Numbered from the stretch's first letter, positions 11,321 through 49,473 are shown. The stretch: DNA of 64,000 nt from Escherichia coli (GCF_009931435.1 NZ_CP043414.1), one strand, 5' to 3'. Program-made: numbers and translations. Notes: generated by a model from the letters alone, not told the origin.

Positions 11321-11347
11321 ACAAAAAACGCGCCCGAAGGTGCGTTG
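11321..11347. repeat. attL: left copy of 27-bp direct repeat (acaaaaaacgcgcccgaaggTgcgttg)
   Basis: Matches 49447..49473 with one mismatch; integrase gene lies just inside. Confidence 0.75.
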
Positions 11348-11433
11348 TAAAACCCACTGAATTCAATGTTTTCCCTTTGTTTTCAGTGGGTTTTGTTATT
11401 GGTGGGGGTTACTGATTACCCTATAAAACCCAC

Positions 11434-12456
11434 TTATGTGGATGAAATGTGGATGCCTCCTTTTAACGGATTAAGTGAAATTGCATCCTGGAGGAAATCA
11501 GGAGCGAGGTGCGCATAGGTCATAGTTTGCTGGATCGTGGCGTGCCCCATAATTCGCTGGAGCGTAAGTATATTTCCTCCATTAATCATAAAGTGAGCAG
11601 CAAAGGTATGGCGTAGAACATGTACAGCCTGTCCTTTTGGTAGGTCTGGCTTAACACTGCGAAGCACCTTGCGATATTCCTCATAATTGACGTCAAACAA
11701 AAGGCCGGATTTCTTTGTTTTGATCTCACTAACAACTTCATCAGAGACAGGAATAATTCGAACTTTTCCGTTTTTAGTTTTGTTAAACGTCACGCGATTA
11801 TTGATGATGTGTTCCGCGCGCAGATTTTTCGCTTCTCCCCATCTCGCCCCAGTACTGAGACAAAGTAGCGTAATCCGCCGGGCATCACCGCTTACTGCAT
11901 CCAGTAATTTGGCGATTTCTTCCATGGTGAGATACGTCATTTCGGGTGATTTTCGTTTCAAAGAGGGGAGGGCGCGGAGCGGATTTTCTCCGTGAAATTC
12001 CCCGGCATTTGCCAGGAGTGTAAACATTCCTCCGAGATCCGACTCATCACGCCGAACAGTAGACTCTTTTACTCCCAAAGATAAACGGGAGCTTCGATAA
12101 GCGGCCATGAAACGAGCATTAATCTGGCTAACCCTTGGATCATTCATTTCTTTGATGATTTTTTTCAACCTGGTTAGAACGCCGTTAGCATATGGCTTAT
12201 TGCGTCCACCCAATTCCCACCATAACGGAAGCAGATCTGAGAGATGACGTTGCTCTGTTGGCTTTTCAAGCCATTCCTTATCGTGCATGTGGCTGAGAAC
12301 ATAACGCTCAAAGGCCACTGCATCTGCCTTTTTCTTAAAAATCCGCTGAATCCGACGTCCACTTCGGCCACGCGGTCTAACATCCACTTTATACCGTCCA
12401 CCATCGAGCGCTTTAATTGCCATTGGCAAGCCCTCCGGTGAAACGAGGAAAGACAT
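11434..12456 (-). CDS. int: Tyrosine integrase, P2 Int-like (start possibly at 12423, MAIKALDGGRY)
   Basis: Similar to P2 Int as I recall it (LSTGARWGEA, HxLRHTFA, YAH motifs). Confidence 0.9.
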   Translation of the reverse strand: MSFLVSPEGLPMAIKALDGGRYKVDVRPRGRSGRRIQRIFKKKADAVAFERYVLSHMHDKEWLEKPTEQRHLSDLLPLWWELGGRNKPYANGVLTRLKKIIKEMNDPRVSQINARFMAAYRSSRLSLGVKESTVRRDESDLGGMFTLLANAGEFHGENPLRALPSLKRKSPEMTYLTMEEIAKLLDAVSGDARRITLLCLSTGARWGEAKNLRAEHIINNRVTFNKTKNGKVRIIPVSDEVVSEIKTKKSGLLFDVNYEEYRKVLRSVKPDLPKGQAVHVLRHTFAAHFMINGGNILTLQRIMGHATIQQTMTYAHLAPDFLQDAISLNPLKGGIHISST

Positions 12457-12489
12457 TTCCAGTTTGTAAAACGTAAGAATAATAAAGGG

Positions 12490-12807
12490 TTAGCCAATTT
12501 TCCTTTCGGATGGGGGTAAGTCCGTTGGCTCTTGCCCATAGTGTGCGAGAGCCGGAGCTATCTGCCCGGATTCAGGCGCAATTTTCCCAGTCATAAACCA
12601 CAACGCATATTTCTCAAATCTGGGGTTGTTTAGTATTTGCTCAATTACTTCAGCATTAGGGATAGTTTTACCGCTTTCATATCTCCACAGAGCATCACGG
12701 TTTAAACCAAGCATTTTTGCTGTATCCGGGAGGCTAGTAAGTCTCTCGCTTTCACGCATGATTTTTATGCGCTCTCCAATAGTCATACGCATGTTGCAAT
12801 TCTCCAA
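12490..12807 (-). CDS. Immunity repressor, P2 C-like
   Basis: C-terminal WFMTGKIAPESGQIAPALAHYGQ block matches P2 C as recalled; divergent from the cox-like gene. Confidence 0.85.
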   Translation of the reverse strand: MENCNMRMTIGERIKIMRESERLTSLPDTAKMLGLNRDALWRYESGKTIPNAEVIEQILNNPRFEKYALWFMTGKIAPESGQIAPALAHYGQEPTDLPPSERKIG

Positions 12808-12887
12808 CGTCTGTATTAATGTTTATACAAATGAGTTTGATTTGGGGCATCCGTCGCAAGAAATACCCCAAACAGGGAGATTATCAC
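12808..12887. promoter_or_regulatory. Lysis/lysogeny switch region (divergent promoters and operators)
   Basis: Intergenic between divergent repressor and cox-like genes; inferred from P2 architecture. Confidence 0.5.
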
Positions 12888-13214
12888 ATGAATGAAGAAC
12901 TATTGAGGGCATTGTTTAAGATCCCAGACCCCATCACCGTCGATGAGTTTTCCCGCCGTACAGGTAAGACCGAATCAGCCGTAAGAAAGTTGGTAGAGCG
13001 TCGACTCATCCCTCTAACTACTGAGCGCGAGGTTTTAGGCGAGGAAGGGAGTTCGCGCCGTCTTCTCATCCTTTGGAATGAGTGGCTCGAAATGGTCTAT
13101 GACGCAACGAAACAGCTTCCTCCTGAGCGTAAAGATTGGCGCAATCACTGGCTTAAGAAAGCCAAGAAGCTGGCGGAAGATTTGGGATTAGGCTTTCTTA
13201 ATTTTGCTGCATGA
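12888..13214 (+). CDS. Cox-like excisionase / early regulator (start at MNEELLRALF)
   Basis: Position opposite the repressor; GGAG RBS before the internal Met; small HTH-like protein. Confidence 0.55.
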   Translation: MNEELLRALFKIPDPITVDEFSRRTGKTESAVRKLVERRLIPLTTEREVLGEEGSSRRLLILWNEWLEMVYDATKQLPPERKDWRNHWLKKAKKLAEDLGLGFLNFAA

Positions 13215-13232
13215 GATGCAGGGAGTTTTGAT

Positions 13233-13574
13233 ATGAAACAGCAACGTAATTCACGCTTTCGTAATGGTGCTGAACGCCACGCTAACCGTTTCGCTACCAG
13301 TGCATCACGCAGCAACATCCGCTACAGCCTGAGTGATACACACGCAACGCCGGATGGCTACCCAGTAAAACAAATCGGCGAGCACGCTTGGCTGATTGAG
13401 AAAGCTGGAATCGTGATCCACAAATGCCCACGCAATCCGTTTACCGGAAACCGCATTTTTGCATTGAGCTGTGGCGACAATCAGTTTGGGCAGGATTTCA
13501 CATTATACGAAGCACTTCGCACGGTTGATCGTCTGCTTCGCGGGCAAAGTTTTATTAAACAGGCTGATTTATAA
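13233..13574 (+). CDS. Hypothetical early-operon protein (113 aa)
   Basis: Co-directional ORF in the early operon. Confidence 0.45.
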   Translation: MKQQRNSRFRNGAERHANRFATSASRSNIRYSLSDTHATPDGYPVKQIGEHAWLIEKAGIVIHKCPRNPFTGNRIFALSCGDNQFGQDFTLYEALRTVDRLLRGQSFIKQADL

Positions 13575-13584
13575 CGGGTGCTTT

Positions 13585-13872
13585 ATGACCAAAGACCATG
13601 CACAAGGTGTATTTATCCGCTTTATTGATTTTCGCGGTGAACTGTTATTACGTGCATCCGCTATTGACGGAGTGACTCCGGCGGGTAAAAACGGAGCCGA
13701 CGAAGCCACTTACGTTTATCTGAACGGCACGCGACTGCTTGTGGAACTTCCGTACCAGACCGTACGAGAAATCATTAGCGAAGCTGAAAAGGCACGCCAA
13801 GTTAATGGCGATGAACCCTATATCGAAATTATTTGTATGGATTCAGAAGCTGAAATACAGAAAGCAGATTAA
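13585..13872 (+). CDS. Hypothetical early-operon protein (95 aa)
   Basis: Internal ATG immediately after the upstream stop. Confidence 0.45.
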   Translation: MTKDHAQGVFIRFIDFRGELLLRASAIDGVTPAGKNGADEATYVYLNGTRLLVELPYQTVREIISEAEKARQVNGDEPYIEIICMDSEAEIQKAD

Positions 13873-13883
13873 AGGGCGTTGTG

Positions 13884-14126
13884 ATGGGCAAAGAATATAA
13901 AACTCTCATTAACAAAGCACTTGAGCGTTTTTATTTTCGCTTAAGTGCATCAGGCGCTCATGCTGAACGTGCAGCCCGTGACTCATTGACCAGGGCAATC
14001 CGGAGTTTGTATGACGTCGCTTTTTACGCTGATGATCTGGATGCACTTAACGAACTTTCCGAGCTGATCTGTGCCGCAGAATGCGGGGAACATATTGAAC
14101 CGTATAAGCTGGGGAATATCGCATGA
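13884..14126 (+). CDS. Hypothetical early-operon protein (80 aa)
   Basis: ORF in early operon. Confidence 0.4.
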   Translation: MGKEYKTLINKALERFYFRLSASGAHAERAARDSLTRAIRSLYDVAFYADDLDALNELSELICAAECGEHIEPYKLGNIA

Positions 14127-14236
14127 GTATATTTATCTCATGGCTTGTTCTGATTATTTCGGTGGCCTGCGCCATTGGAATTATGCGAATTATTCATTCA
14201 GTAAAAAAGATTGAACGTTTTTTCACTGGTGAATAA
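14123..14236 (+). CDS. Small hydrophobic peptide (37 aa, MSIFISWLVLIISVACAIGIMRIIHSVKKIERFFTGE)
   Basis: Found by reading; ATGA overlap with upstream stop; single predicted TM helix. Confidence 0.3.
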   Translation: MSIFISWLVLIISVACAIGIMRIIHSVKKIERFFTGE

Positions 14237-14329
14237 CGATACAAATAAAACATCAAATTAAATAAGAAAACGTGAAAACCATCCGTATTAACGGAGGTAT
14301 TCGCACACGCAAATAACGGAGATACAAAA

Positions 14330-14740
14330 ATGCACGCAAAAGAAGAAGGTATCATCAGAGCACTGAAAGAAATTTCAAAGACAGAAAACGAAGTAGCGAA
14401 AAAAGCCATAGCAAATAATCATATGGACGTCGCAACCCACACACTGATAGTCGCAAGAGTCACGGCAGAAGCAGCCGAAATTATCGCAAAACAGGATGCT
14501 GAACTGGCGGTTCTCAGAACACAACCAGTCACCGGACTGGATTTGTCTAACACCGGACGCCTTATTTACACAATTGGCTCGGAGCTACAGCGATACACCA
14601 TTATCGCCGGGTTACAGGATAAATACCTGATCACTCCTCACCCCATAAGGGAATCAGAAATTCTGACAAATCTCCGCCTGATAGAGCGCTCTCAAGTCGC
14701 ATTCATTGATGACGCACAGTGCACCGTATTTAACGCATAG
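14330..14740 (+). CDS. Hypothetical early-operon protein (136 aa)
   Basis: ORF with purine-rich RBS region. Confidence 0.45.
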   Translation: MHAKEEGIIRALKEISKTENEVAKKAIANNHMDVATHTLIVARVTAEAAEIIAKQDAELAVLRTQPVTGLDLSNTGRLIYTIGSELQRYTIIAGLQDKYLITPHPIRESEILTNLRLIERSQVAFIDDAQCTVFNA

Positions 14741-14763
14741 AGTTACTGGACAAAGGGGGCGCA

Positions 14764-14967
14764 ATGGCAATTAAGCATTTTCCCGTCGTTCGCTTTACCT
14801 CCAGAGGGCGCGAATACGAGGTCGACGAACGCCTGATTACCACTATCGACAAACATCGTTCGGAAAAGGATGCACACCACATCTACCTCACTGACGGCAC
14901 TTACTTCTGCGCCACTAATGTGGCGCGGGTAAACCTTATCCGACAGGTACAGGAGCCACGCAGATGA
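14764..14967 (+). CDS. Hypothetical small protein (67 aa)
   Basis: ORF; stop overlaps next start. Confidence 0.4.
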   Translation: MAIKHFPVVRFTSRGREYEVDERLITTIDKHRSEKDAHHIYLTDGTYFCATNVARVNLIRQVQEPRR

Positions 14968-15230
14968 CCATTCTGGACTACATCGCTACTCATCCGGGGT
15001 GTAGCGGCGGAGAGATCGCCGCAGCACTGAATACTCCAACCACAGCCATTAATGCTGAGTTACGCCAACTTTGGCGCGGCGGCTTAGTCATCAGAACAAA
15101 CCGCAGCACAGGTGGTCGCGCTCGCAAAACTGGAGGCCAGGCTTCTTACCACGTAAACCCGATGCCGTTCGGGTGTAGCAATCCACTTACTCACATGTTT
15201 AACCAGCTACTGAAGGAAGCCAGAACATGA
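14964..15230 (+). CDS. Small winged-helix-like DNA-binding protein (88 aa)
   Basis: Translationally coupled; HTH-like GCSGGEIAAALNTPTTAINAELRQL. Confidence 0.45.
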   Translation: MTILDYIATHPGCSGGEIAAALNTPTTAINAELRQLWRGGLVIRTNRSTGGRARKTGGQASYHVNPMPFGCSNPLTHMFNQLLKEART

Positions 15231-15526
15231 GCACCATCAACCACCAGAAGCTACGCGAACTGGCATTTGCCCTGCAACGAATGGCAACACCTCAAAAATT
15301 ACTGGCATTTCGCGCAATGCTCTCGCCGTCTGCTGTGCTGGCACTGCTGGATGAGCTGGAGCACGCCAGAACCATGGCTCCAGCCATTCGCCTGACGCTC
15401 CATCATGAAATCGCTGATTTCTGCGCACCACTGGGTTCGCCTGGTGAACCAGAAACGCCGGAAACAATGCAACGAGAGCTACTGCAACGCATCGACAAGG
15501 TTTTTGATTTTTTCCTTAACCAGTAA
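15227..15526 (+). CDS. Hypothetical protein (99 aa)
   Basis: Translationally coupled ORF. Confidence 0.4.
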   Translation: MSTINHQKLRELAFALQRMATPQKLLAFRAMLSPSAVLALLDELEHARTMAPAIRLTLHHEIADFCAPLGSPGEPETPETMQRELLQRIDKVFDFFLNQ

Positions 15527-15537
15527 AGGACCGCGAT

Positions 15538-15750
15538 ATGAACAAAAAGACCTGGTTTCGCGCATACATGTGGGCGCTGGTATGCGTCCTCGTTTCTCTC
15601 ATTCTGTATGTGGGGCTACTTCCCAGAATGATTTCATCAGACAGCTCCTTCCTGGTATTGCTGGGCATTTTTGTCGCCTTGCTGTACCCGGCGGGCGTTG
15701 TTCGCTTTTTCAGTAACTACATCAAAGCAATTATGGAAACCAAACAATGA
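15538..15750 (+). CDS. Small two-TM membrane protein (70 aa)
   Basis: Two hydrophobic helices; ATGA overlap with downstream SPFH gene. Confidence 0.5.
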   Translation: MNKKTWFRAYMWALVCVLVSLILYVGLLPRMISSDSSFLVLLGIFVALLYPAGVVRFFSNYIKAIMETKQ

Positions 15751-16571
15751 AAAAACTATTACCACTCATCCCTCTCCTGATGACCACACTTCTGGTTGGC
15801 TGTGACCGCGTGGAGCCGGGCAATGTAGGCATCAAAGTCAACAAACTGGGCGACGATAAAGGCGTCGGTGAAGTAGTTGGCGTTGGCCGCTACTGGACAG
15901 GCTGGAATACAGAGGTTTACATCTTCCCGACTTTCAAACAAATGAAGACTTACGATGAGCCGTTCAACTTCCAGATGAGTGACGGCACAACCATCGGCTA
16001 TCACATCGGCGTGGCCTACAAAGTTGATCCATCCAAAGTTACCACTGTGTTTCAGACCTACCGCAAAGGCGTGGATGACATTACCGACACTGACCTGCGC
16101 CAGAAGATCGCCGATGCACTCAACCGACTGGCCAGCAAAATGACCACCGATAAGTTTATCGACGGTGGCAAGTCTGAACTGCTGGATTCAGCACTTAAAG
16201 ACATTCAGTCAGAAATGACACCTATCGGCATTCAGGTCATGAGCCTCTCTTATGTCGGTAAACCGGAATATCCGCCAACCGTTATCGACAGCATTAACGC
16301 CAAAGTCACGGCAAACCAGAAAACCCTGCAACGCGAACAGGAAGTCAAGCAACGCGAAGCAGAAGCCAACATGTTGCGCGCAGAAGCTGCCGGACAGGCT
16401 GATGCCATTCGCACAAAAGCCCAGGCTGAAGCCGACGCCATTCGTTTACGCGGTGAAGCTCTGCGCCAGAATCCCGGCGTTATGGAGCTGGAAGCAATCA
16501 ACAAATGGAACGGCACGCTGCCGCAATACATGACCAGCAACACCGCTGTTCCGTTTGTTCCGGTGAAGTAA
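15747..16571 (+). CDS. SPFH/band-7 (prohibitin/HflKC-like) domain lipoprotein
   Basis: Signal peptide plus lipobox LLVGC; SPFH-like core; Ala/Glu/Arg-rich coiled-coil tail. Confidence 0.6.
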   Translation: MKKLLPLIPLLMTTLLVGCDRVEPGNVGIKVNKLGDDKGVGEVVGVGRYWTGWNTEVYIFPTFKQMKTYDEPFNFQMSDGTTIGYHIGVAYKVDPSKVTTVFQTYRKGVDDITDTDLRQKIADALNRLASKMTTDKFIDGGKSELLDSALKDIQSEMTPIGIQVMSLSYVGKPEYPPTVIDSINAKVTANQKTLQREQEVKQREAEANMLRAEAAGQADAIRTKAQAEADAIRLRGEALRQNPGVMELEAINKWNGTLPQYMTSNTAVPFVPVK

Positions 16572-16940
16572 TTAAACCCGGCCAGTGAAAATCGCTGGCC
16601 GGAGCAGTATCAGGATTTTTTTTAGTATGCCGTTCTCACAAAAAAACCGCTTGCCATGCCGCAATCAGTCAGGTTACATTTCCGCTGCACCTCATAAAAC
16701 GGGTGCCGGGTTTCGCAGCCTGCTGACAACCAAAGCGCACAACCGCGCCAGCGGTTTTTTTGTGCGTACTGTATTGCCACGTCTTTTTCGCACACGAATT
16801 ATGGCGGGGCGTACGGGGCCGACTTCGGTCGGGCCGGGTTCTTTGGTTGCCGGTACTGCGAACCCCGTACGTCTCGCCACCCACAGTTTCGCAGCTCTGG
16901 ATGGTGAGTTTTCAAAACTTACAACCAAAGAGGCTACACC

Positions 16941-17171
16941 ATGGCAAACCGCAAACAGCACCGCGCTATCGCGGAGCGTCGTCACATCCAGACTGAAATC
17001 AACCGCAGACTTTCCCGCGCATTCCGCGTCGCTAAAATCATGCACATCAATATGCTGCATGAGCGTAGCTGCGAACTTTCAAACCTCTACTCATCCGCTG
17101 TTTTCAGTTATCTGGCGGATGATCTGCGCGAGCTTCAGCAGCTCATCCAGCAGCAAAACAAACTCCATTAA
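16941..17171 (+). CDS. Hypothetical small basic protein (76 aa)
   Basis: AAAGAGG RBS. Confidence 0.45.
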   Translation: MANRKQHRAIAERRHIQTEINRRLSRAFRVAKIMHINMLHERSCELSNLYSSAVFSYLADDLRELQQLIQQQNKLH

Positions 17172-17243
17172 TTCCTGTTCCGGGCCTTTCCTGCACCTTG
17201 CGGCGGGAGGCCTTCGCACATCTGTAACAAGAGGATTGCCGCA

Positions 17244-17609: not shown

Positions 17610-17615
17610 ATCACT

Positions 17616-20486: not shown

Positions 20487-20514
20487 TTAATTAATCAACA
20501 TAAGGAAAAGCGAC

Positions 20515-21474: not shown

Positions 21475-21478
21475 ATCA

Positions 21479-21793: not shown

Positions 21794-21807
21794 AAACAGG
21801 AGTAACT

Positions 21808-22095: not shown

Positions 22096-22106
22096 TGGAA
22101 GTAATC

Positions 22107-43040: not shown

Positions 43041-43587
43041 CGGGGAAGCCATTCTGCTGCGTAACATCACCGTCAGCGCCACCATGCAACTACCGGACAA
43101 AGATATGTCCGGACAGTCAACCAGCACCACGAGCGCCCAGCAGGGAAACAAGGCTAAAGAGCTGCGCGTGTCGGGGGTTATTGATTTTAACGATGAAGCT
43201 ATTCTGACCCGTATTTTTCAGCTTGCGGAGGCAACAGAAAGCAACGGTGCTAAAAAAACATATCGCATTGCTAACGCTACCGCGAAGGCAATCAATATGC
43301 GACAGGGGGTGTTTTCTGGTGGCATTGATGCCACGGAACAACAGGGAAAAATGCACTGGCAGATCACCTTTACTCTCAGGGAAAAATTAAGCGTGCCAGA
43401 GAAAGCATCCGCACGCAGCGGTTCGCAGAAAACCATCGCCAGACAGCAGACCCAGAATGGCAGCGAACAGGTACCAGACAAAGGCATGAATACGCAAAGT
43501 TCGTTCTGGAAAAAAATCAATGATGCCGTTGGCTCTGGTCTGGATGCTGTTGGCATCGGGAGCGTGAAAGAGGAAGGGAAAACATGA
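43012..43587 (+). CDS. Hypothetical tail/baseplate-associated protein (191 aa)
   Basis: AAGGGA RBS; coupled to downstream spike gene. Confidence 0.5.
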   Translation: MTQMIVLALDGEAILLRNITVSATMQLPDKDMSGQSTSTTSAQQGNKAKELRVSGVIDFNDEAILTRIFQLAEATESNGAKKTYRIANATAKAINMRQGVFSGGIDATEQQGKMHWQITFTLREKLSVPEKASARSGSQKTIARQQTQNGSEQVPDKGMNTQSSFWKKINDAVGSGLDAVGIGSVKEEGKT

Positions 43588-45281
43588 AATTGATACAACG
43601 CTGCATGATTAATGGCGAACGGGTGGAAATTGCCGATATAAGCCTTGTTCTTACCCTGAATGCTGCCGGTCGTGGCTTCATTTCTGTTAACAATCTGTCA
43701 CCCGAACACAGCCTTGCCGGCGCAATGGTACAAATTGATCTCGGCCGTGACGGTGAAGCATGGCGCTATTTCTCCGGCTACATTGAGCGCGATCAACCTG
43801 CTGAAAATGGCTCACGTCGCCTTTTTATTCGTGAAGCGGCTGCTGTGCTGGATTTTGATTTCCCTTGCTCCATGCAACACCCGACGTTGCGGGGGGTACT
43901 CGATAATCTGGGGCGACAAAGCGGTATCGTTTTTATCACTCCGGATGCGGATTATGCCAGTATACCAACTCCCTACATCACCCACAGCGGCAGCGGAGCA
44001 CAACTGCTCAGCCAACTGGGGCGAGCATTCAGTATCAGCGATTACGTCTGGCACCCTATGCCGGACGGTTCTGTATTTGTGGGAAGCGCAGCTGATTCAC
44101 GATTTGCCAGTATTACAATGCCGGATATTCCGCAACAGTACACACTCGGGCAAAGCGGCGGAAACAGCATCGACATCATGTTTATGGAAACTGTGCGACC
44201 GGGCGTGAACCTACCGGCCGGGCGCATTACCCGTGTAGCCCTCAACAACGAGAAAATGACCCTGACATGGGAGCGCCTTACCGCCACGGGTACCCCTGTT
44301 TCCAAATCACCATTACGCAGACAAATGGAAACACAGTTCCCAGAACTGGCCAGCGGTACGCTACATACCCGGCTGGCGCGCGTCATTGCGCCAACGGAGC
44401 CCACCACCCTGGGCGACGTGGCCGACAGTTTCCGCCCACGCTACGCCGTCGATGTGCAGTTGCTTGATGAGAACGGCAACGATAAAAGCGACACGCCCGT
44501 TTACCCGGCAGTACCGCTCCCCGTCCCCATGGCTGGCAGTGAGGCGGGATGTTTTGCCTACCCACCGGCAGGCACCATCGTGGAAATATCCAACATTGAA
44601 GGACGTCCGGACAAACCCGTTATCAGGCAAATCTTACCCGCTGGCCATAACCTGCCTGATGTAAAGCCCGGCGAACAGCTGCAGCAACAGCGCGCAGAAG
44701 TGTTTCAGCGCGTCACGACTGACGGAAGCTGGCACAGAGAAACCGATCAGCAAATCAGGGAGCATTCAGCCAGACGAACCATTAACAGCGATCAGGAAGA
44801 ACGCACAACAACAACCAGAACAACAACAGTACAGGCAAACGACATAACCAGCGTTCTGGGAACCAGCAAGCTGATGACAGGCCAGACAGAACACATTACT
44901 ACTGGTCATTATGCGATCGCAGCCGGTGAGCATATCCAGATGGTAGCGCAGGATTTGCTGACTAAACTCAAAGGGGCGACATCCACGATTGAGCGCGACC
45001 TTACTGAAAACGTGGGAGGCCGCAGAACATGCCGGGCGGACGGTGGTCTGGAGTTTACAGCCCCGACAGTATTTATTGGTCGCGGTGGCTCACGGGAAAA
45101 ATCCGGACTTAATCTGCTGACGTTGTTGATTGATATTCTGGATCTGGTTCAGTTGCTGGCCACACACACTGCAAACCACACCCACAGCAACACCGGCGCA
45201 CCAACAAACAACAGCGAACTTGCCGCAGACGCCAAACAGGCTACGAGCCTGCGCGAAAAATACGGTGACCTTATCGCCTGA
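43584..45281 (+). CDS. Baseplate central spike protein (gpV-like C-terminal domain)
   Basis: C-terminal THTANHTHSNTGAPT resembles the His-rich tip motif of P2 gpV as recalled; 565 aa. Confidence 0.55.
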   Translation: MKLIQRCMINGERVEIADISLVLTLNAAGRGFISVNNLSPEHSLAGAMVQIDLGRDGEAWRYFSGYIERDQPAENGSRRLFIREAAAVLDFDFPCSMQHPTLRGVLDNLGRQSGIVFITPDADYASIPTPYITHSGSGAQLLSQLGRAFSISDYVWHPMPDGSVFVGSAADSRFASITMPDIPQQYTLGQSGGNSIDIMFMETVRPGVNLPAGRITRVALNNEKMTLTWERLTATGTPVSKSPLRRQMETQFPELASGTLHTRLARVIAPTEPTTLGDVADSFRPRYAVDVQLLDENGNDKSDTPVYPAVPLPVPMAGSEAGCFAYPPAGTIVEISNIEGRPDKPVIRQILPAGHNLPDVKPGEQLQQQRAEVFQRVTTDGSWHRETDQQIREHSARRTINSDQEERTTTTRTTTVQANDITSVLGTSKLMTGQTEHITTGHYAIAAGEHIQMVAQDLLTKLKGATSTIERDLTENVGGRRTCRADGGLEFTAPTVFIGRGGSREKSGLNLLTLLIDILDLVQLLATHTANHTHSNTGAPTNNSELAADAKQATSLREKYGDLIA

Positions 45282-45880
45282 TCACCGGGCATACCCCCCC
45301 ATAAACGCCCATCACGCAACGCACGGCTCCGGTCGTGCGTTTTCATATCTGCCACCTGATTAATGCGTTCTGCGTGCCATTCTGGCGCTGTATGCGCACA
45401 CCGCGTAAACGGTGTGACGTAAAGCGTGAGGTGACGTAAACCGCGCTACCCCCTCCAACCCGCGGGTTTCGTGTCGAAACAGTTTTTCAGTTTTCTGCCG
45501 TGCAAAAATGACCGCCAGCCCGCGCAGCAACTGAGGGAAAAGCGAAGATCTGAAATTTCACGCTTTGAAATTTTTTGCAGTTTTCAAAGTGGTTTTTACG
45601 ATCGCACAAATGGCCGGAGCAATAAAACCGCATGATATTAAAAGAGTTTTCATACTTTACGCGAGACAAAAAAACGATCACGAAAGGATCGCATCAAACA
45701 GCCATCAAACAAAGAAGGCAGACACGGCGCGGCCTGCACAAAATTAAGCTCCAAAATAAAACTGAAAAAAAGGATCGCAACAAGAAGAAAAGCGCGTAAA
45801 ACGATCGCTGCTGATGTGGCGTTTCTTTATACAAGCTGCTATTTGCGATATGCTGAACACATCAACCTGTGGAGTGCATT

Positions 45881-46507
45881 ATGAAACGAAAATCAAAGTC
45901 TGCTGCCATTGCTGCTATTACTACAGCTCTGACAGCATCACTGGCTCCGGTGCCAGCTAAAAGCACGATACTACCAACAACAGTTATTGAATCCGCGACA
46001 CACGCCAGAGTGGTTTCAATGCTTACATTTGAGCATCATGATGGTCAGGTGTTTCTGCCTCTCGAAGAAGCTATTGAATATATCAACGGGCTGAATGACA
46101 ACATGCGCGCCGCGCTCAATGCAGTCATTGAAGAACGACAGAACAGAGGCAAGGGAGCACTGTTTACTGACAAAACCGCAAAAATCATAAAAATATGCGA
46201 AGAGTCAATTAAGCAGCACACCCGTGTTAAAGAGGCTGTCAAAATTGTAATGGATCCGGATAACCTGGCAAAAATGTATCCGGATAGCCTGGAGCAAAGA
46301 ATCGCCTATCGCAATAAACTGGTTCGTTTTGGTCGGGCAATTGCGCAGGGAGAGTTTATCGCTCGTGATGCCATCAACACCATCAAACGAAGCACCGCAC
46401 CAGACAAAACAACCAGCCTGGGCAATACGCTGTCTGACGGAAATGTGAAAGCAATGATTATTGCCGAGCATAAAAACATGGGACTCCCGGCACCGGAGTT
46501 TTCCTGA
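45881..46507 (+). CDS. Hypothetical protein (208 aa) with signal-peptide-like N-terminus, coupled to the YafO-like gene
   Basis: GGAG RBS before MKRKSK; N-region/hydrophobic stretch MKRKSKSAAIAAITTALTASLAPVPA; TGATG overlap with next gene. Confidence 0.6.
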   Translation: MKRKSKSAAIAAITTALTASLAPVPAKSTILPTTVIESATHARVVSMLTFEHHDGQVFLPLEEAIEYINGLNDNMRAALNAVIEERQNRGKGALFTDKTAKIIKICEESIKQHTRVKEAVKIVMDPDNLAKMYPDSLEQRIAYRNKLVRFGRAIAQGEFIARDAINTIKRSTAPDKTTSLGNTLSDGNVKAMIIAEHKNMGLPAPEFS

Positions 46508-46887
46508 TGGCAAGCAAAGTAAGCATTCATAAAGATGTTGAATACCAGGACATTGCAAAAGTTTACGGAAAGGCTCTGGAAAACTGGTTAAATACCGGTG
46601 TTCTCCCTGACAGATTCGGCAATGAAGGGCAGTGGGAAGATAACGCAAGATTATGTGGTTCGTTTGTATATAAATTACACATAAGACTACCGTCAGAACC
46701 ACCATGGAAGAAAAGCAAAGCCCAAATAGACAGAACTTCAAATATCTATCTGGTTTATACAAGGCACTGGATGGATTATGACAATATACAAATCATCAGC
46801 ATCATGGCCCCAGATGCTCACGAAAAAGCCAAAACTTCTTTCATGGCTGAACTGGAAAGACGGGCTGAAGAATTCCAGAACTCATAA
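46507..46887 (+). CDS. YafO-family toxin-like protein (126 aa)
   Basis: Blocks GVLPDRFGNEG, HIRL, YLVYTR and C-terminal ISIMAPDAHEKAK...AEEF resemble E. coli YafO as I recall it. Confidence 0.55.
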   Translation: MASKVSIHKDVEYQDIAKVYGKALENWLNTGVLPDRFGNEGQWEDNARLCGSFVYKLHIRLPSEPPWKKSKAQIDRTSNIYLVYTRHWMDYDNIQIISIMAPDAHEKAKTSFMAELERRAEEFQNS

Positions 46888-46907
46888 ATTGCCTGATTTT
46901 CTCTCAG

Positions 46908-46942
46908 AAACCCGCAGCGTAAAAACTGTGGGTTTTCTTTTT
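46908..46942 (+). terminator. Rho-independent terminator after the YafO-like operon
   Basis: Hairpin aaacccgcag...ctgtgggttt followed by T-run. Confidence 0.65.
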
Positions 46943-47178
46943 GCTACCCTGATACGTGAGGGTAGCACTCAAAGTGAGGCAATATGTAGGCAACCTATTT
47001 AATACGTAAAAATTAATGCATTAAATGGATATTTACTAGCATGGGTACTGGCTTAAAATATCACAACCCTGTTTTATAACGTACTGAATTTATTAGGTGT
47101 GACGGTTTTCCAATGGGGCTTCCGACATTACGTTCAGCTGATGCTTTTCTTATGTAACGAGAAGACATATATTGGTAA

Positions 47179-47234
47179 GCGATGAAGCGATGAAGCGATG
47201 AAGCGATGAAGCGATGAAGCGATGAAGCGATGTA
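47179..47234. repeat. Octanucleotide tandem repeat (GCGATGAA) x6 plus one degenerate unit, flanked by ATGTAACG
   Basis: Directly visible; about 95 bp upstream of the ATPase start codon. Confidence 0.95.
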
Positions 47235-47251
47235 ACGTCTGTTTGGTTATA

Positions 47252-47296
47252 AACTTCACACTAATAATTTCTAAATGAAATTATTAGTGTGAAGTT
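47252..47296. promoter_or_regulatory. 20-bp perfect inverted repeat (aacttcacactaataatttc / gaaattattagtgtgaagtt, 5-nt spacer): candidate operator or 5'-UTR hairpin
   Basis: Perfect palindrome ending 34 bp upstream of the ATPase ATG; RBS AAGGAA follows. Confidence 0.6.
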
Positions 47297-47329
47297 GATG
47301 TTTATTGTGATTATAACTAAGGAATTAAA

Positions 47330-48799
47330 ATGAAATTATCTCCAGCAGAATTGAAGTTAGAAAGGGGTAAGGTTCAAGATAATAAATTCAATCAATATGT
47401 TAAACGTATCACATTAAAAAATGTCAGAGGGTTTGATGAGGAAATTGTGGAGTTTAAAACACCAGTTACAGCTCTTATCGGGACTAATGGTGGAGGGAAG
47501 TCGACTATATTAGGTGCTGTAGCTCTCGCTTATAAAAATGTTAAGCCAAGCAAGTTTTTCCCTAAATCATTTTATGGGGATGATTCAATGAGTGATTGGG
47601 AAATTGGATTCGAATTGATTGACAAGCCTATTTCAAAAGATAAAAATATTAACAGGACTGCAAAATTTAAACAGATGAAATGGCGCAGAGATAATTTCCC
47701 AGAGCGAAATGTTGTATATGTAGAAATACAAAGAACTGTTCCTGCAGGCGAACTAACTAAGTTTAATAAATTTTTATCTGGCGATGCTAAACAATTTGAA
47801 GAAAAAAATCTCAACCCTGAGACAATAAAATATTGCTCTGCCGTTTTAGATAAAAAGATAGAAGATTACAGATGTATAATAAATAAGCACGATCCATCTT
47901 CAAGAATGTTTGTAGGTAAGGCAATTAATGGTTCTGGTTATTCTCAGTTCCATTTTGGTGCAGGTGAAGCATCAATAATAGATACTATTGATAGAATAGA
48001 GACTGCTGCTGATAATTCTCTTGTTTTAATTGAAGAAATTGAAAATGGACTGCATCCTGTTGCAGTGCGGTTGTTTGTTAACTATTTGACAAATGTAGCA
48101 AAGAGGAAAAAGCTGCAAATAATATTTACAACACATTCGCAGGATGCAGTAAACGAGCTAGAGCCAGAAGCTGTTTGGGCTTCTATTAACAAAAAAGTAT
48201 GGAATGGTAAACTAAGTATTGAAAGTTTACGCGCTATAACGGGACAGAAGATAAATTCGAAAGTTATATATGTTGAAGATTCTTTTGCAAAAGAGTGGGT
48301 TGAAAATGCGATGGATCGATATATTCCAGAACTAGCCTCAACAATAAAAGTCTACACGGCAGGTGGTTACCCCAGCGTGGTTAAAGTAAGTCAATATCAT
48401 AATGAGAACCCTACTATAAATTATCCATCAATCGCATTAGTTGATGGGGATATTAAAGGTAGACCCGGAACTAAAGATCTGCCTGATAATGCAATGTTCA
48501 TCGGGGATGATTATCCTGACGCTACGGTTTTTCATTATATTGCAAATAACATAGAAGAAAATGCCTCAGTTTTGAGGCAAAGATGTTTGTTAACAAGATT
48601 TGACGCTGAAAAGATTAAATCGGAAGTTGAGAGTGTGATGCATTCTGCATGTGATCACCATGTTTATTTTACTAGATTAAGTGATAAATTAGATTTTGCC
48701 TCAGAACTATTCATTCGAGCTGGTATGATAGATTTATTTAATGAGAAAAATCCAGAATTTTGGTCCCCAATTATGGACTTCATTAAAAAAGGTCTATAG
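47330..48799 (+). CDS. OLD-family-like ABC ATPase fused to Toprim/DUF4435-like domain (489 aa); candidate antiphage defence protein
   Basis: Walker A GTNGGGKST, Walker B LVLIEEIE, H-loop TTHS; C-terminal YVEDS (Glu) and ALVDGD (DxD); AT-rich gene. Confidence 0.65.
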   Translation: MKLSPAELKLERGKVQDNKFNQYVKRITLKNVRGFDEEIVEFKTPVTALIGTNGGGKSTILGAVALAYKNVKPSKFFPKSFYGDDSMSDWEIGFELIDKPISKDKNINRTAKFKQMKWRRDNFPERNVVYVEIQRTVPAGELTKFNKFLSGDAKQFEEKNLNPETIKYCSAVLDKKIEDYRCIINKHDPSSRMFVGKAINGSGYSQFHFGAGEASIIDTIDRIETAADNSLVLIEEIENGLHPVAVRLFVNYLTNVAKRKKLQIIFTTHSQDAVNELEPEAVWASINKKVWNGKLSIESLRAITGQKINSKVIYVEDSFAKEWVENAMDRYIPELASTIKVYTAGGYPSVVKVSQYHNENPTINYPSIALVDGDIKGRPGTKDLPDNAMFIGDDYPDATVFHYIANNIEENASVLRQRCLLTRFDAEKIKSEVESVMHSACDHHVYFTRLSDKLDFASELFIRAGMIDLFNEKNPEFWSPIMDFIKKGL

Positions 48800-48865
48800 T
48801 AATAATGCAAAAATATAATATTTAGTTTGCGATTTATATTTTTCATAATGAATTGTTGAGAAAAT

Positions 48866-48901
48866 AAGAGAGCATCGAAAATTGAGGCTCTCTTATTTTT
48901 A
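48866..48901 (+). terminator. Rho-independent terminator after the ATPase gene
   Basis: Hairpin aagagagc...gctctctt followed by T-run. Confidence 0.7.
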
Positions 48902-48959
48902 TGAGATATCTCTAATGTATTAATCGTTTTATTTTGGTGCTACCACCACTGATGCTAAC

Positions 48960-49346
48960 TTGTCGATCAGACATTCGCACTATTCAATATCTTTTAGGCT
49001 CCGCAATGAAAACGCCCCCGAAGGAACAATCCCCCGTCAATCGGTTGCCAAAGGCCATTTAGGTAAATCGCCTTCGAGGTCGTTCGATGGCTGCATGACG
49101 TTCCCGGTTATCCCGTCAAAGAAAATGCACTCGACCGGAAAACCAGAAGAACTAATGGCGGAGTTGGTCAGGACTGCGAATAGTGGCGGAACAGTCCTTG
49201 ATCCTTTTATGGGGCCAGGGACAACGGGTGTGGCTGCACTGAAAGCAGGGCGAAAATTTATTGGTATAGAGACCAGTGATCATTATTTTGAAGTAGCAGC
49301 ACAGCGACTTCGGGGGACTATTACCACAACCATTTCGACTACATAA
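48960..49346 (+). pseudogene. 3' fragment of a beta-class DNA methyltransferase gene (N6-adenine or N4-cytosine), N-terminally truncated
   Basis: HSTGKPEELMAEL and VLDPFMGPGTTGVAALKAGRKFIGIE (SAM-binding FxGxG) present; no catalytic DPPY region upstream. Confidence 0.6.
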
Positions 49347-49350
49347 GACA

Positions 49351-49378
49351 AAGCCCGCATTTTTGCGGGCTTGTATAT
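49351..49378 (+). terminator. Terminator hairpin after the methyltransferase remnant
   Basis: aagcccgca tttt tgcgggctt stem-loop. Confidence 0.6.
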
Positions 49379-49446
49379 CATTAGTGATGTGGACAGTTTG
49401 TGGATGTTTACAAGAAATAAGCTAATAGAAACAATTTGTTATCTTT

Positions 49447-49473
49447 ACAAAAAACGCGCCCGAAGGCGCGTTG
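49447..49473. repeat. attR: right copy of the 27-bp direct repeat; also the raiA terminator hairpin
   Basis: acaaaaaacgcgcccgaaggcgcgttg; perfect hairpin acgcgcc/ggcgcgt plus T-run on the raiA strand. Confidence 0.75.

What the first reader, a model, noticed from the sequence alone, without database searches (positions are those of the whole stretch)
11321..49473. P2-type prophage integrated into the raiA terminator, with mosaic architecture
The imperfect 27-bp direct repeats at 11321..11347 and 49447..49473 are the raiA transcription terminator hairpin, so the att core coincides with a host terminator and integration rebuilds it at attR. The element combines a P2-like early region and head module with a tail module arranged sheath-tube-lysis-chaperone-tape measure-baseplate-fibres-spike, which differs from the canonical P2 order, plus partition and cargo genes.
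Basis: partly seen in the sequence, partly recalled or inferred. Interest (0 to 1): 0.45.

Follow-up and report, generated by a model that had tools for sequence, protein, structure and literature searches.

The report
P2-family prophage in raiA terminator
This is an intact-looking 38-kb temperate phage of the P2 family sitting exactly in the terminator of the E. coli raiA gene; it is a real, modular prophage, but of an already well-understood kind.

Summary
A 27-bp repeat (26/27 identical) at 11321..11347 and 49447..49473 brackets a 38,126-bp prophage. E. coli K-12 has one copy at the same place, and it is the raiA terminator, which is also the 3' end of the sRNA RaiZ.

The element belongs to the P2 family (Peduoviridae). 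The "non-canonical" tail order is the normal order of the HP1/ESSI-2 branch of that family. The head genes belong to that same block, not to a P2/P88-type block.

The real mosaic joints are at about 13231/13232, 21631/21632 and 45776/45777:
- The integrase/immunity module is shared with a P88-type prophage examined at the same site.
- The early region is 94-96% identical in DNA to phage P88.
- The late block is 41-77% identical in protein to ESSI-2.
- The cargo is a YafO-toxin pair, a HEC-04/IbfA-type ATPase-TOPRIM defence gene and a truncated methylase.

The attachment site has P2-like geometry. A joined attP with the predicted sequence exists in one IMG/VR contig, from a P88-type relative. 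The late block occurs in 41 of 5,426 complete E. coli genomes, and no deposited phage is closer than 58% (capsid protein).

Verdict: a new genus-level member of a known kind, of low to moderate interest. One side lead: the lysis cassette has no spanin but carries a conserved 35-aa cationic peptide ORF.

The parts
11142..11267 (-). Host Phe leader / pheL (left flank). A TTGACA hexamer, probably the -35 box of its promoter, starts with the last base of the att core.
   Evidence: Rfam Phe_leader, 131 bits. PGAP annotation of near-identical genomes. Sequence.
11321..11347 (.). attL core (B-O-P'): 27 bp, T at position 21 (the phage-derived variant). On the minus strand it is a weakened copy of the raiA terminator, -9.0 kcal/mol.
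   Evidence: The same T is present in attL of two other lysogens and in the joined attP of L009.
11348..11455 (.). P' arm of attP. The motif AAAACCCACT occurs three times (11349, 11384 inverted, 11423), at the position where P2 has its Cox sites. Tandem TGTGGATG repeats lie 11 bp apart at 11437 and 11448, inside the 3' end of int.
   Evidence: compared with the annotated P2 Int and Cox sites. This arm is 100% identical over 96 nt to the attP contig L009.
11434..12423 (-). Tyrosine integrase, 329 aa.
   Evidence: Pfam Int_N and Phage_integrase. 54% identical to P2 Int, 50% to P88 Int, 100% to the integrase of prophage L002 at the same site.
12490..12792 (-). Immunity repressor (P2 C-like helix-turn-helix protein).
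   Evidence: HTH_31/HTH_3. 52% identical to P2 C.
12888..13214 (+). Cox-like excisionase/repressor; the match is weak.
   Evidence: Pfam Phage_Cox, 25.3 bits, below the 27.5 cut-off. PHROG 272 Cox-like, E 2e-4.
13232..21631 (+). Early/replication module, 94-96% identical in DNA to phage P88. It holds DUF4761, DUF4754, a MarR-like gene, an ead-like gene, a small membrane protein with an SPFH lipoprotein (15538..16571), isrK-like and C4-like RNAs (16687..16884), a 76-aa ORF named 'derepression protein' in P88 (16941..17171), gpA replication endonuclease (17616..20438) and ParM (20515..21474).
21479..22466 (+). ParR-like protein (53% identical to the P88 one), a 95-aa ORF and an Rrf2-family regulator. 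The block shared with the flk-site prophage but not with P88 starts inside parR.
   Evidence: Pfam Plasmid_stab_B and Rrf2. Identities, breakpoint.
22535..22792 (-). Ogr/Delta-type zinc-finger late activator, placed next to the portal gene as in ESSI-2.
   Evidence: PF04606, E 9e-13. 48% identical to ESSI-2 gp32.
22858..25672 (-). Portal (22858..23892) and large terminase (23885..25672), divergent from the head operon as in P2 and HP1.
   Evidence: Pfam. 47-58% identical to ESSI-2/HP1, against 30-44% to P2/P88.
25867..29106 (+). GPO scaffold, P2-family major capsid protein, small terminase and head completion protein.
   Evidence: PF05929 and PF05125. Capsid 58% identical to ESSI-2 against 27-29% to P88/P2.
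29116..31919 (+). gpR-like and gpS-like tail completion proteins, sheath (DUF2586, 30319..31467) and tube (HP1 Orf24 family, 31464..31919).
   Evidence: The sheath is at most 56% identical to any deposited phage.
31923..32670 (+). Lysis cassette: holin (31923..32219), an unannotated 35-aa cationic ORF (32225..32332) and an M15 peptidase endolysin (32329..32670). No spanin was found.
32741..35312 (+). Tail assembly chaperone, DUF6890 and tape measure protein.
35302..37461 (+). Baseplate proteins: DUF2590, a gpJ-like protein and a gpI-like protein.
37458..42330 (+). Two fibre sets: fibre 1 with its assembly protein, then fibre 2 with a DUF4376 protein. The C-terminal part of fibre 2 (40238..41986) is the variable region.
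42327..45281 (+). HP1 orf33-like protein, HP1 ORF34 baseplate protein (43012..43587) and a 565-aa VgrG-like hub and spike protein (43584..45281).
   Evidence: PF25759. PHROG 2258, 'baseplate protein'. AF2 model with Foldseek matches to VgrG and contractile-injection-system spikes at E 3e-17 to 4e-13 and to Mu gp44 at 2e-9.
45282..45776 (.). Conserved non-coding stretch at the end of the late block. It is the candidate cos region by analogy with HP1; this is an inference.
   Evidence: 90% identical in the flk-site prophage L006, and similarity ends at 45776. HP1 cos lies just after orf35.
45881..46887 (+). Cargo: a 208-aa protein of unknown family, with a YafO-family toxin gene overlapping its stop codon.
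   Evidence: PF13957, E 1e-27. No family for the 208-aa partner.
47330..48799 (+). Cargo: a HEC-04/IbfA-type ABC-ATPase-TOPRIM single-gene defence protein, in a low-GC (34-39%) island. A palindrome with 20-bp arms lies at 47252..47296, just upstream.
   Evidence: PADLOC HEC-04, E 6e-204, full length. GC profile. Palindrome. Function of HEC-04 from bioRxiv 10.1101/2024.01.29.577857 and PMC12111858.
48960..49346 (+). Remnant (C-terminal part) of an N6/N4 DNA methyltransferase. The gene is full length next to attP in related phages.
   Evidence: PF01555. PGAP marks the homologue as 'missing N-terminus'. A full-length 268-aa ORF occupies the corresponding place in L009.
49388..49406 (.). P arm of attP: TGTGGACA and TGTGGATG 11 bp apart, 41-59 bp from the core, followed by an A/T-rich spacer.
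   Evidence: compared with the annotated P2 P arm.
49447..49473 (.). attR core (P-O-B'). It is identical to the K-12 sequence and is the intact raiA terminator and 3' end of RaiZ (-14.4 kcal/mol).
49496..49837 (-). Host raiA (right flank).

Best explanation
The interval is one complete-looking temperate phage genome of 38,126 bp from the family Peduoviridae (P2-like phages). A P2-type tyrosine integrase inserted it by site-specific recombination between a 27-bp attP core and the identical sequence in the host. That host sequence is the intrinsic terminator of raiA and also the 3' end of the sRNA RaiZ.

Because the core is duplicated, raiA/RaiZ keep a perfect terminator at attR. The pheL-pheA promoter keeps its TTGACA hexamer and its upstream T-run at attL, so integration is silent for both neighbours. 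The single mismatch shows that attP carries T at core position 21 and that strand exchange took place to the left of it.

The genome is built from four exchangeable modules:
1. int-C-cox, which sets site and immunity.
2. A P88-like early/replication module with ParM.
3. An HP1/ESSI-2-type late block, running from parR and ogr through the head, tail and lysis genes to a VgrG-like spike.
4. A cargo island next to attP, carrying a YafO-toxin pair and an OLD-like HEC-04/IbfA defence gene. This island displaced most of an ancestral methylase gene.

Shown here: the repeats, the empty site, the gene content and order, the module boundaries, the P2-like attP geometry, and a joined attP in a relative. 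Inferred: present-day inducibility, the cos position, and the defence function of the cargo.
For: - Repeats and empty site.
- RaiZ is annotated as ending inside the core in MG1655. Hairpin energies.
- P2-family hallmarks by Pfam: Phage_GPA, Phage_GPO, Phage_cap_P2, Ogr_Delta, gpR, gpS and integrase.
- The late region is colinear, gene for gene, with HP1 and ESSI-2, with families HP1_Orf24, HP1_ORF34, DUF2586 and DUF2590.
- Identity table: late genes 41-77% to ESSI-2 and 25-57% to HP1. Head genes are only 24-44% identical to P2/P88, and most tail genes gave no tblastn match to P2/P88.
- Module joints.
- The same int and early arm is joined to a P2-order late arm at the same site in L002. The same early and late arms are joined to a different repressor/cox module and different cargo at the flk site in L006, where the integrase itself lies outside the fetched stretch.
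- attP geometry: tandem TGTGGAYR arm repeats 11 bp apart on both arms, at P2-like distances from the core.
- A P-O-P' junction with the predicted T variant exists in IMG/VR contig L009.
- No frameshifted or interrupted essential gene: PGAP calls every essential-function gene intact in the 99.4-99.7% identical copy L003 (its only interrupted phage gene is the IS66-split DUF4761 gene), and the window lacks that copy's IS66 insertion.
- The late block is present at 95-99% identity in 41 of 5,426 genomes.
Against: - No experiment shows excision or virion production for this copy.
- The only joined attP found belongs to a P88-type relative that shares the att module. It could also come from a tandem lysogen. 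A scan of metagenome contigs found none.
- At 38.1 kb the genome is longer than its isolated relatives, whose deposited records are 28.8-35.8 kb, so packaging capacity is untested.
- No spanin gene was found.
- The Cox assignment is below Pfam's cut-off.
- The cos site was not identified.
Confidence: 0.9

Rival explanations
1. It is a defective or cryptic prophage remnant that can no longer excise or form particles.
For: - The methyltransferase next to attR is truncated.
- No spanin was found.
- The genome is 38.1 kb, larger than its isolated relatives.
- A sister copy in strain 7_33_46A carries an IS66 insertion.
- No attP junction of this exact type was found in metagenome contigs.
Against: - All replication, regulation, head, tail and lysis genes are open and full length relative to homologues.
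- Both att copies and both arm-site pairs are intact.
- The truncated gene is cargo, not an essential gene.
- The whole clade lacks spanins yet is kept at 95-99% identity in 41 genomes and at several chromosomal sites, which implies recent mobility.
Confidence: 0.25
2. The interval holds two adjacent elements, a P88-like remnant next to an HP1-like phage, rather than one mosaic genome.
For: There is a sharp change of affinity at about 21631. The DNA is 94-96% P88-like to the left, and no P88 DNA match was found to the right.
Against: - There is only one integrase, one repressor/cox switch, one replication module, one late block and one pair of att repeats.
- The left part has no structural genes, and the right part has no int, repressor or replication gene.
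- The identical junction (ParM, ParR, Rrf2, ogr, portal) recurs in a prophage at the flk site with different ends.
Confidence: 0.03
3. The 27-bp repeat is a chance or host-derived duplication unrelated to integration, for example a terminator sequence that happens to be reused.
For: Terminator hairpins of the form GC stem, UUCG loop and T-run are common motifs.
Against: - 0 matches are expected by chance with up to 3 mismatches.
- Homology ends exactly at the junctions with the empty site.
- The same junctions occur in other lysogens.
- A P-O-P' junction exists.
- Int arm-type repeats flank the core at P2-like distances.
Confidence: 0.01

Closest known systems
Haemophilus phage HP1 (Hpunavirus) and Cronobacter phage ESSI-2 (Seongnamvirus), Peduoviridae
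   Same: The late-region order is the same gene for gene: (ogr) portal and terminase on one strand, then scaffold, capsid, small terminase, head completion, gpR-like, gpS-like, sheath (DUF2586), tube (Orf24), holin, endolysin, chaperone, tape measure, DUF2590, J, I, fibre, assembly protein, orf33, ORF34 and the orf35 hub-spike. The protein families are shared. The M15 endolysin is 77% identical and the capsid 58% identical to ESSI-2.
   Different: Protein identity is only 41-77% (ESSI-2) and 25-57% (HP1), and approximate intergenomic similarity is 13.7% and 4.7%. The early region differs: gpA is 32-36% identical, and no ParMR was seen in those phages. The Rz/Rz1 spanin genes after the endolysin are missing and a 35-aa ORF is inserted before it. 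There is an extra fibre pair, and the integrase and att site differ.
Escherichia phage P88 (Xuanwuvirus, Peduoviridae) and P88-type prophages at the raiA site (for example strain MFDS1022581)
   Same: The early region from DUF4761 to ParM is 94-96% identical in DNA. The MFDS1022581 prophage also shares an identical integrase, C and cox-like gene and the same attL. The attP contig L009 is of this type.
   Different: P88 itself has a different integrase (50% identical) and a different att. P88-type late genes follow the P2 order and are 24-36% identical for head proteins, with most tail genes giving no match. Overall similarity is about 23%, far below the 70% usually used for a genus (my knowledge of ICTV practice).
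Phage P2 (Peduovirus) integration system
   Same: The integrase is 54% and the C repressor 52% identical. The core is 27 bp. Two tandem TGTGGAYR-type arm repeats lie 11 bp apart on each arm. The P' arm overlaps the 3' end of int about 90 bp from the core, and the P arm lies about 40-60 bp away across an A/T-rich spacer. An OLD-like ATPase-TOPRIM defence gene is carried as cargo, the counterpart of P2 old.
   Different: The core sequence and host target differ. The cargo lies between the tail end (candidate cos region) and attP, not between gene A and gene Q. The ogr gene sits next to the portal gene. The tail gene order differs.
HEC-04 / IbfA single-gene anti-phage defence (ABC ATPase fused to TOPRIM)
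   Same: Full-length PADLOC match, E 6e-204, covering residues 2-488 of 489. The N-terminal ABC ATPase resembles OLD-family nucleases.
   Different: Activity and phage targets were not tested for this copy. The published HEC-04 was found embedded in Hma systems, and IbfA on plasmids. Here the gene is prophage cargo.

Membership tests
Peduoviridae (P2-like temperate myoviruses) | P2-family major capsid protein, GPO scaffold/protease, and a divergent portal-terminase operon | tested here: met
   PF05125 at E 7e-83 and PF05929 at E 2e-40. Portal and terminase lie on the minus strand, abutting the plus-strand head operon.
Peduoviridae (P2-like temperate myoviruses) | gpA-type rolling-circle replication endonuclease | tested here: met
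   PF05840 at E 2e-130.
Peduoviridae (P2-like temperate myoviruses) | Ogr/Delta zinc-finger late activator | tested here: met
   PF04606 at E 9e-13, at 22535..22792 on the minus strand.
Peduoviridae (P2-like temperate myoviruses) | C repressor / Cox developmental switch with face-to-face genes next to int | tested here: inconclusive
   The C-like helix-turn-helix protein is 52% identical to P2 C and is divergent from the next gene. The Cox match is 25.3 bits, below the 27.5 cut-off, and PHROG Cox-like gives E 2e-4.
Peduovirus-type (canonical P2) late gene order | Order: lysis, R, S, V, W, J, I, H, G, then FI, FII, E, T, U, D | tested here: not met
   Here sheath and tube precede the lysis genes and the tape measure, and the baseplate, fibres and hub-spike follow (compared).
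HP1-type late module (Hpunavirus/Seongnamvirus-like) | Colinear order with DUF2586 sheath, HP1_Orf24 tube, DUF2590, HP1_ORF34 and an orf35-like terminal hub-spike | tested here: met
HP1-type late module (Hpunavirus/Seongnamvirus-like) | Rz/Rz1-type spanin genes directly after the endolysin | tested here: not met
   Only 70 nt separate the M15 gene from the chaperone gene. There is no Rz match and no credible lipobox ORF.
Genus Xuanwuvirus (P88), Seongnamvirus (ESSI-2) or Hpunavirus (HP1) | At least about 70% nucleotide similarity over the whole genome (the genus threshold as I know ICTV practice) | tested here: not met
   Approximate blastn-based intergenomic similarity is 23.0%, 13.7% and 4.7%. 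Megablast coverage of the first half of the prophage is at most 36%, and of the second half at most 6%.
P2-type integrative recombination site | Core identical in attP and attB, flanked by tandem arm-type Int sites; one core copy in the empty site; a joined attP exists | tested here: met
   Int binding itself is not testable here.
HEC-04 / IbfA defence | Single protein with an N-terminal ABC ATPase and a C-terminal TOPRIM nuclease domain | tested here: met
   PADLOC HEC-04 at E 6e-204, full length. Pfam finds AAA_15/AAA_21. The TOPRIM domain is inferred from the family description, since Pfam did not call it.
HEC-04 / IbfA defence | Protects against phage infection | not testable with these tools
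   Published for HEC-04 (T4, T5) and for IbfA; not assayed for this copy.
YafNO-type type II toxin-antitoxin | YafO toxin preceded by a small YafN-type antitoxin | tested here: not met
   The toxin domain is present (PF13957, E 1e-27). The upstream partner is a 208-aa protein with no family match in Pfam, PHROGs, NCBIfam or PDB sequences.

The most novel reading that the evidence does not exclude
The E. coli lineage of this HP1-type late block lyses without spanins. A conserved 27-35-aa cationic, tryptophan-rich amphipathic peptide would take over outer-membrane disruption, as the 'disruptin' gp28 does in phage phiKT. Its ORF lies at 32225..32332 between the holin and endolysin genes and is not annotated.

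In a survey of 80 related IMG/VR loci plus the window and L010, every member of the close clade (tube at least 84% identical) has this ORF and no Rz/Rz1. Every ESSI-2-like locus with an M15 endolysin has an Rz-like gene and no such ORF. The ORF stays open, and one comparison shows 9 synonymous against 6 non-synonymous changes.

Against: the pattern may reflect a single evolutionary event. Two intermediate loci (L034, L035) lack both features. No function was tested.
Probability: 0.25. Interest if true: 0.5.

Novelty: new member of a known kind. Interest (0 to 1): 0.25.

Why it matters
It matters mainly as careful annotation.

- It fixes the exact att site of a recurrent E. coli prophage family. 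121 of 5,426 complete genomes carry the pheL-integrase junction.
- It shows that the site is the raiA/RaiZ terminator and that integration leaves both neighbouring transcription units intact.
- It gives a clean natural example of module swapping inside the P2 family. The same integration and early arm is joined either to a P2-order or to an HP1-order late arm, and the same late arm is found at different sites with different cargo.
- The late block has no close relative among the deposited phage records searched (capsid at most 58% identical), so an isolate would probably found a new genus.
- The cargo adds one more case of an OLD-like defence gene (HEC-04/IbfA type) carried next to attP.

None of this challenges current understanding.

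Tried and rejected
- Phage P88 as the source of the att site: rejected. The P88 record has no match to the core with up to 2 mismatches, its integrase is only 50% identical, and its record ends show a different terminator-like sequence.
- A mosaic joint between head and tail: rejected by the identity table.
- Rfam found no RaiZ family hit at gathering thresholds, so the RaiZ link rests on the MG1655 annotation and on PMC5391140 (title and abstract only).
- Literature searches for this integration site (raiA/yfiA, pheL/pheA, P2-like, prophage) found nothing specific.
- cos site: blastn of 45282..45880 against the HP1, P2 and P88 records found nothing. ESSI-2 gave only a 46-nt match at 76%.
- A scan of metagenome contigs for the attP junction gave 0 hits.
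- Sequence searches of the 565-aa protein and the sheath against PDB sequences were uninformative. The fold search resolved the 565-aa protein, although the model is of moderate quality: pLDDT 67.6 overall, with the C-terminal half low.
- The 208-aa partner of YafO has no family and no significant PDB sequence match.
- A lipobox scan for an o-spanin returned only implausible antisense ORFs.

Full report
**Observation**

11321..11347 reads ACAAAAAACGCGCCCGAAGGTGCGTTG and 49447..49473 reads ACAAAAAACGCGCCCGAAGGCGCGTTG. Allowing 3 mismatches, these are the only matches in the window, against 0.00 expected in shuffles.

The left flank is pheA and the Phe leader/pheL on the minus strand (Rfam Phe_leader 11142..11267). 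The right flank is raiA (49496..49837, minus strand) followed by bamD.

I fetched the uninterrupted raiA-pheL spacer of E. coli K-12 MG1655. It contains one copy, the C version. Both junctions of the window diverge from it exactly at the edges of the 27 bp.

On the raiA strand the core reads CAACGCGCC-UUCG-GGCGCGUUUUUUGU and starts 24 nt after the raiA stop codon. It is an 8-bp GC-rich stem with a UUCG loop and a U-run, at -14.4 kcal/mol, and the terminator scan picks it up. The left copy has an A.C mismatch in the stem and folds at -9.0 kcal/mol.

RefSeq annotates the sRNA RaiZ (b4805) as ending inside this core. By its title and abstract, PMC5391140 describes a ProQ-dependent small RNA that represses an mRNA in trans; I did not read its text. 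The att core is therefore both the raiA terminator and the last 25 nt of RaiZ.

**What lies between the repeats**

The gene content, checked with Pfam, PHROGs, PADLOC and the PGAP annotation of a 99.4-99.7% identical copy in strain 7_33_46A, runs as follows:

- Integrase (11434..12423, minus strand), a P2 C-like repressor and a weak Cox-like gene.
- A run of small early genes.
- A small membrane protein with an SPFH lipoprotein.
- isrK-like and C4-like RNAs, upstream of a 76-aa ORF that the P88 record names 'derepression protein'.
- gpA replication endonuclease, ParM and ParR, a 95-aa ORF and an Rrf2-family regulator.
- Ogr, portal and large terminase on the minus strand.
- Scaffold, P2-family capsid, small terminase and head completion.
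- gpR-like, gpS-like, sheath (DUF2586) and tube (HP1 Orf24 family).
- Holin and M15 endolysin.
- Chaperone, DUF6890 and tape measure.
- DUF2590, J and I.
- Two fibre sets.
- An orf33-like protein, HP1 ORF34 and a 565-aa protein.
- 0.5 kb of conserved non-coding DNA.
- Cargo.

For the 565-aa protein I built a 29-sequence alignment and an AlphaFold model. Mean pLDDT is 67.6; residues 1-250 are near 90 and the C-terminal half is low. Foldseek against the PDB gives full-length matches to VgrG and to the central spikes of contractile injection systems (E 3e-17 to 4e-13). It also matches the Mu gp44 hub (about 2e-9).

**The tail order is HP1-type, and the heads go with it**

The order sheath, tube, lysis, chaperone, tape measure, baseplate, fibres, hub-spike differs from P2. 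It is identical, gene for gene, to Haemophilus phage HP1 (orf15-35) and Cronobacter phage ESSI-2, both Peduoviridae.

tblastn of every predicted protein against P88, ESSI-2, HP1 and P2 gives these identities:

| Protein | ESSI-2 | HP1 | P88 | P2 |
|---|---|---|---|---|
| Portal | 47% | 54% | 30% | 37% |
| Large terminase | 58% | 53% | 35% | 44% |
| Capsid | 58% | 31% | 27% | 29% |

Sheath, tube, DUF2590, J, I, ORF34 and the spike match only ESSI-2/HP1 (38-67%). Head and tail are thus one HP1-type block, together with an ogr gene placed beside the portal gene as in ESSI-2. Among 50,697 deposited phage records, nothing exceeds 58% (capsid) or 56% (sheath) protein identity. Megablast finds only fibre fragments in the late half.

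**Where the mosaic joints really are**

1. 11348..13231 (int, C, cox-like) is 98% identical to a prophage at the same site in strain MFDS1022581. That prophage has a P88-like, P2-order late region. P88 itself has a different integrase (50% identical) and a different att.
2. 13232..21631 is 94-96% identical to P88 and to the MFDS1022581 prophage. The SPFH cassette (15527..16636) is an indel relative to the latter.
3. From 21632, inside parR, to 45776 there is no DNA similarity to P88. This stretch is 95-97.5% identical to a prophage in isolate SC418, apart from the variable fibre-2 segment (40238..41986). The SC418 prophage lies next to flk. Its repressor/cox module is different, and its cargo is Hok, Com and a full-length methylase.
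4. 45777..49446 is cargo specific to this lineage.

The combination of a P88-like early arm with an HP1-type late arm is therefore a stable lineage, not a one-off. Its integration/immunity module and its cargo are exchangeable cassettes.

The pheL-integrase junction occurs in 121 of 5,426 complete E. coli genomes. The late block occurs in 41. My rough VIRIDIC-like similarity is 23% to P88, 14% to ESSI-2, 5% to HP1 and 4% to P2.

**Integration mechanism**

The integrase is 54% identical to P2 Int, and the site geometry copies P2.

- The annotated P2 P arm is ATGTGGTCAATGTGTGGACG and the P' arm is CTGTGGACACTGTGTGGACAC. The P' arm overlaps the 3' end of int, 87 bp from the core.
- Here TGTGGACA and TGTGGATG lie 11 bp apart at 49388 and 49399, 41-59 bp from the core across an A/T-rich spacer.
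- TGTGGATG occurs twice, 11 bp apart, at 11437 and 11448, inside the 3' end of int and 90 bp from the core.
- These four sites are 4 of only 11 occurrences of the degenerate 8-mer in the window, counting both strands.
- Three copies of AAAACCCACT lie between the core and the P' arm, where P2 has its Cox sites. That they bind Cox is an inference.

The mismatch fits a simple exchange. attL (B-O-P') has T at position 21 and attR (P-O-B') has the host C. So attP should carry T, and the crossover lies to the left of position 21. Two other lysogens show the same pattern.

A scan of IMG/VR for the predicted P-O-P' junction found one contig, L009. In it the right arm, a single core with T, and the left arm are contiguous. 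The left arm plus core is 100% identical over 96 nt, and the core plus right arm is 94% identical over 429 nt. That contig carries P88-type tail genes and a full-length methylase. It therefore documents the att module in a relative, not excision of this very phage. A tandem lysogen could give the same junction. The metagenome scan was negative.

**Consequences for the host** (sequence-based inference)

The attR copy is identical to K-12, so the raiA terminator and the RaiZ 3' end are unchanged. On the pheL side, a perfect TTGACA hexamer starts with the last base of the core. The probable pheL-pheA -35 box and its upstream T-run are thus preserved. The weakened terminator copy sits between int and that promoter.

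**Cargo**

- The 489-aa protein is a full-length match to PADLOC HEC-04 (E 6e-204). [quoted passage not shown] It was shown to protect against T4 and T5 and is homologous to IbfA (bioRxiv 10.1101/2024.01.29.577857 and PMC12111858).
- It is the functional counterpart of P2 old. It sits in a 34-39% GC island, behind a palindrome with 20-bp arms.
- Upstream is a YafO-family toxin whose 208-aa partner has no known family. Similar 'X + YafO' pairs sit at other positions in related prophages.
- The 128-aa ORF at 48960..49346 is the C-terminal remnant of the methylase that is full length next to attP in L009 and SC418. The cargo was therefore inserted at the expense of that gene.
- Rousset et al. (PMC9122126) describe cos-proximal defence hotspots in P2-like phages. 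If cos lies in 45282..45776, as in HP1, this island is cos-proximal too. That is untested.

**Intactness**

I found no interrupted essential gene. The window's copy lacks the IS66 insertion seen in strain 7_33_46A. Open points are the 38.1-kb size, the unidentified cos site and the missing spanin.

**Side lead**

ESSI-2 and HP1 have Rz/Rz1-type genes after the endolysin. Here only 70 nt separate the M15 gene from the chaperone gene, and no credible lipobox ORF exists anywhere in the prophage.

Instead, an unannotated 35-aa ORF (32225..32332) fills the gap between holin and endolysin. Its product, MLSRREQKAAAIAWKIIRALWYWLRKPQQPHKEQK, has net charge +7, three tryptophans and a hydrophobic moment of 0.62.

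I surveyed 80 IMG/VR loci with tube homologues, plus the window and L010:

- The clade with tube at least 84% identical always has such an ORF (27-35 aa, charge +6 to +9) and no Rz.
- The ESSI-2-like loci with an M15 endolysin all have an Rz-like gene and no such ORF.
- Two intermediate loci (L034, L035) have neither.
- Between the window and L026 the ORF differs at 15 of 108 nt, 9 of them synonymous.

This resembles the 'disruptin' solution of phage phiKT (bioRxiv 10.1101/515445). It remains a hypothesis.

**Verdict**

The element is an ordinary, apparently complete P2-family prophage. Its 'unusual' tail order is the standard HP1-type layout. It is a new, probably genus-level member of a known kind. 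Interest is low to moderate.

Noticed in passing
window 31923..32741: The lysis cassette lacks the Rz/Rz1 spanin genes that ESSI-2 and HP1 have after the endolysin. An unannotated 35-aa cationic, Trp-rich ORF (32225..32332, net charge +7) sits between holin and endolysin. Across 80 related IMG/VR loci plus the window and L010, the ORF and the Rz-like gene never occur together. The ORF shows more synonymous than non-synonymous change in one comparison (9 against 6). It is a possible disruptin-like substitute for spanins.
   Followed up: partly
window 16687..17171: Rfam hits to isrK (16687..16761, 65.9 bits) and C4 antisense RNA (16797..16884, 87.1 bits) lie just upstream of a 76-aa ORF that the P88 record names 'derepression protein'. 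This looks like a P1-type C4-controlled antirepressor switch inside a P2-family early region. The mechanical ORF 16585..17247 and the PGAP partial 'hypothetical protein' at the corresponding place in strain 7_33_46A overlap these RNAs and are probably not genes.
   Followed up: no
window 49447..49610 (minus strand); L001 582..743: The att core covers the last 25 nt of the annotated sRNA RaiZ, which derives from the raiA 3' end. The prophage-side (attL) copy places a RaiZ-terminator look-alike with one stem mismatch downstream of int. Whether that 3' end binds ProQ is unknown.
   Followed up: partly
window 47252..47296: A palindrome with 20-bp arms (AACTTCACACTAATAATTTC taaat GAAATTATTAGTGTGAAGTT) overlaps promoter-like hexamers on both strands, 34 nt upstream of the HEC-04/IbfA-type defence gene. 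It is a possible operator.
   Followed up: no
window 45881..46887; L002 30951..31934; L010 29285..30444: A two-gene cassette, a variable unknown protein followed by a YafO-family toxin, recurs in related prophages at different positions: between parR and the portal gene in L002, and after the spike gene here and in L010. The upstream partners are only 28% identical and have no known family. One of them is annotated, doubtfully, as SufA.
   Followed up: partly
window 15527..16636: The cassette of a small membrane protein and an SPFH/Band-7 lipoprotein is present here, in P88 and in the flk-site prophage. It is cleanly absent from the otherwise 96-98% identical prophage of strain MFDS1022581.
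   Followed up: no
L003 3286..5702 (strain 7_33_46A); window 13454..13461: The closest genomic copy of this prophage carries an ISEc23 (IS66-family) insertion in the DUF4761 gene. It has an 8-bp overlap at the insertion point, consistent with a target-site duplication. The window's copy is uninterrupted.
   Followed up: no
window 48960..49346; L009 201..1007: The ORF next to attR is only the C-terminal part of an N6/N4 DNA methyltransferase. The gene is full length, and in SC418 preceded by a Com-like gene, next to attP in related phages. Similarity to those relatives stops at about 49049, so the present cargo replaced the 5' part of the gene.
   Followed up: partly
L004 1..20 and 35790..35814 (phage P88 record ends): The deposited P88 genome starts with GCCACCCGAAGGTG, preceded across the circular junction by ...TTTTCGT. 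This looks like part of a different terminator-type att core. P88-group integrases may commonly target intrinsic terminators.
   Followed up: no
window 39719..42330: A second fibre gene and a DUF4376 protein follow the first fibre and its assembly gene. HP1 and ESSI-2 have only one set. The C-terminal part of fibre 2 (40238..41986) is the only late-region segment that differs from the flk-site prophage. Parts of the fibre genes are 83-89% identical in DNA to fibre genes of phiP27, Rac and an Actinobacillus phage.
   Followed up: no
window 53522..53660 and 56656..61846: Ordinary host features to the right of the prophage: the RyfD sRNA and a complete rRNA operon (16S, tRNA-Glu, 23S, 5S).
   Followed up: no
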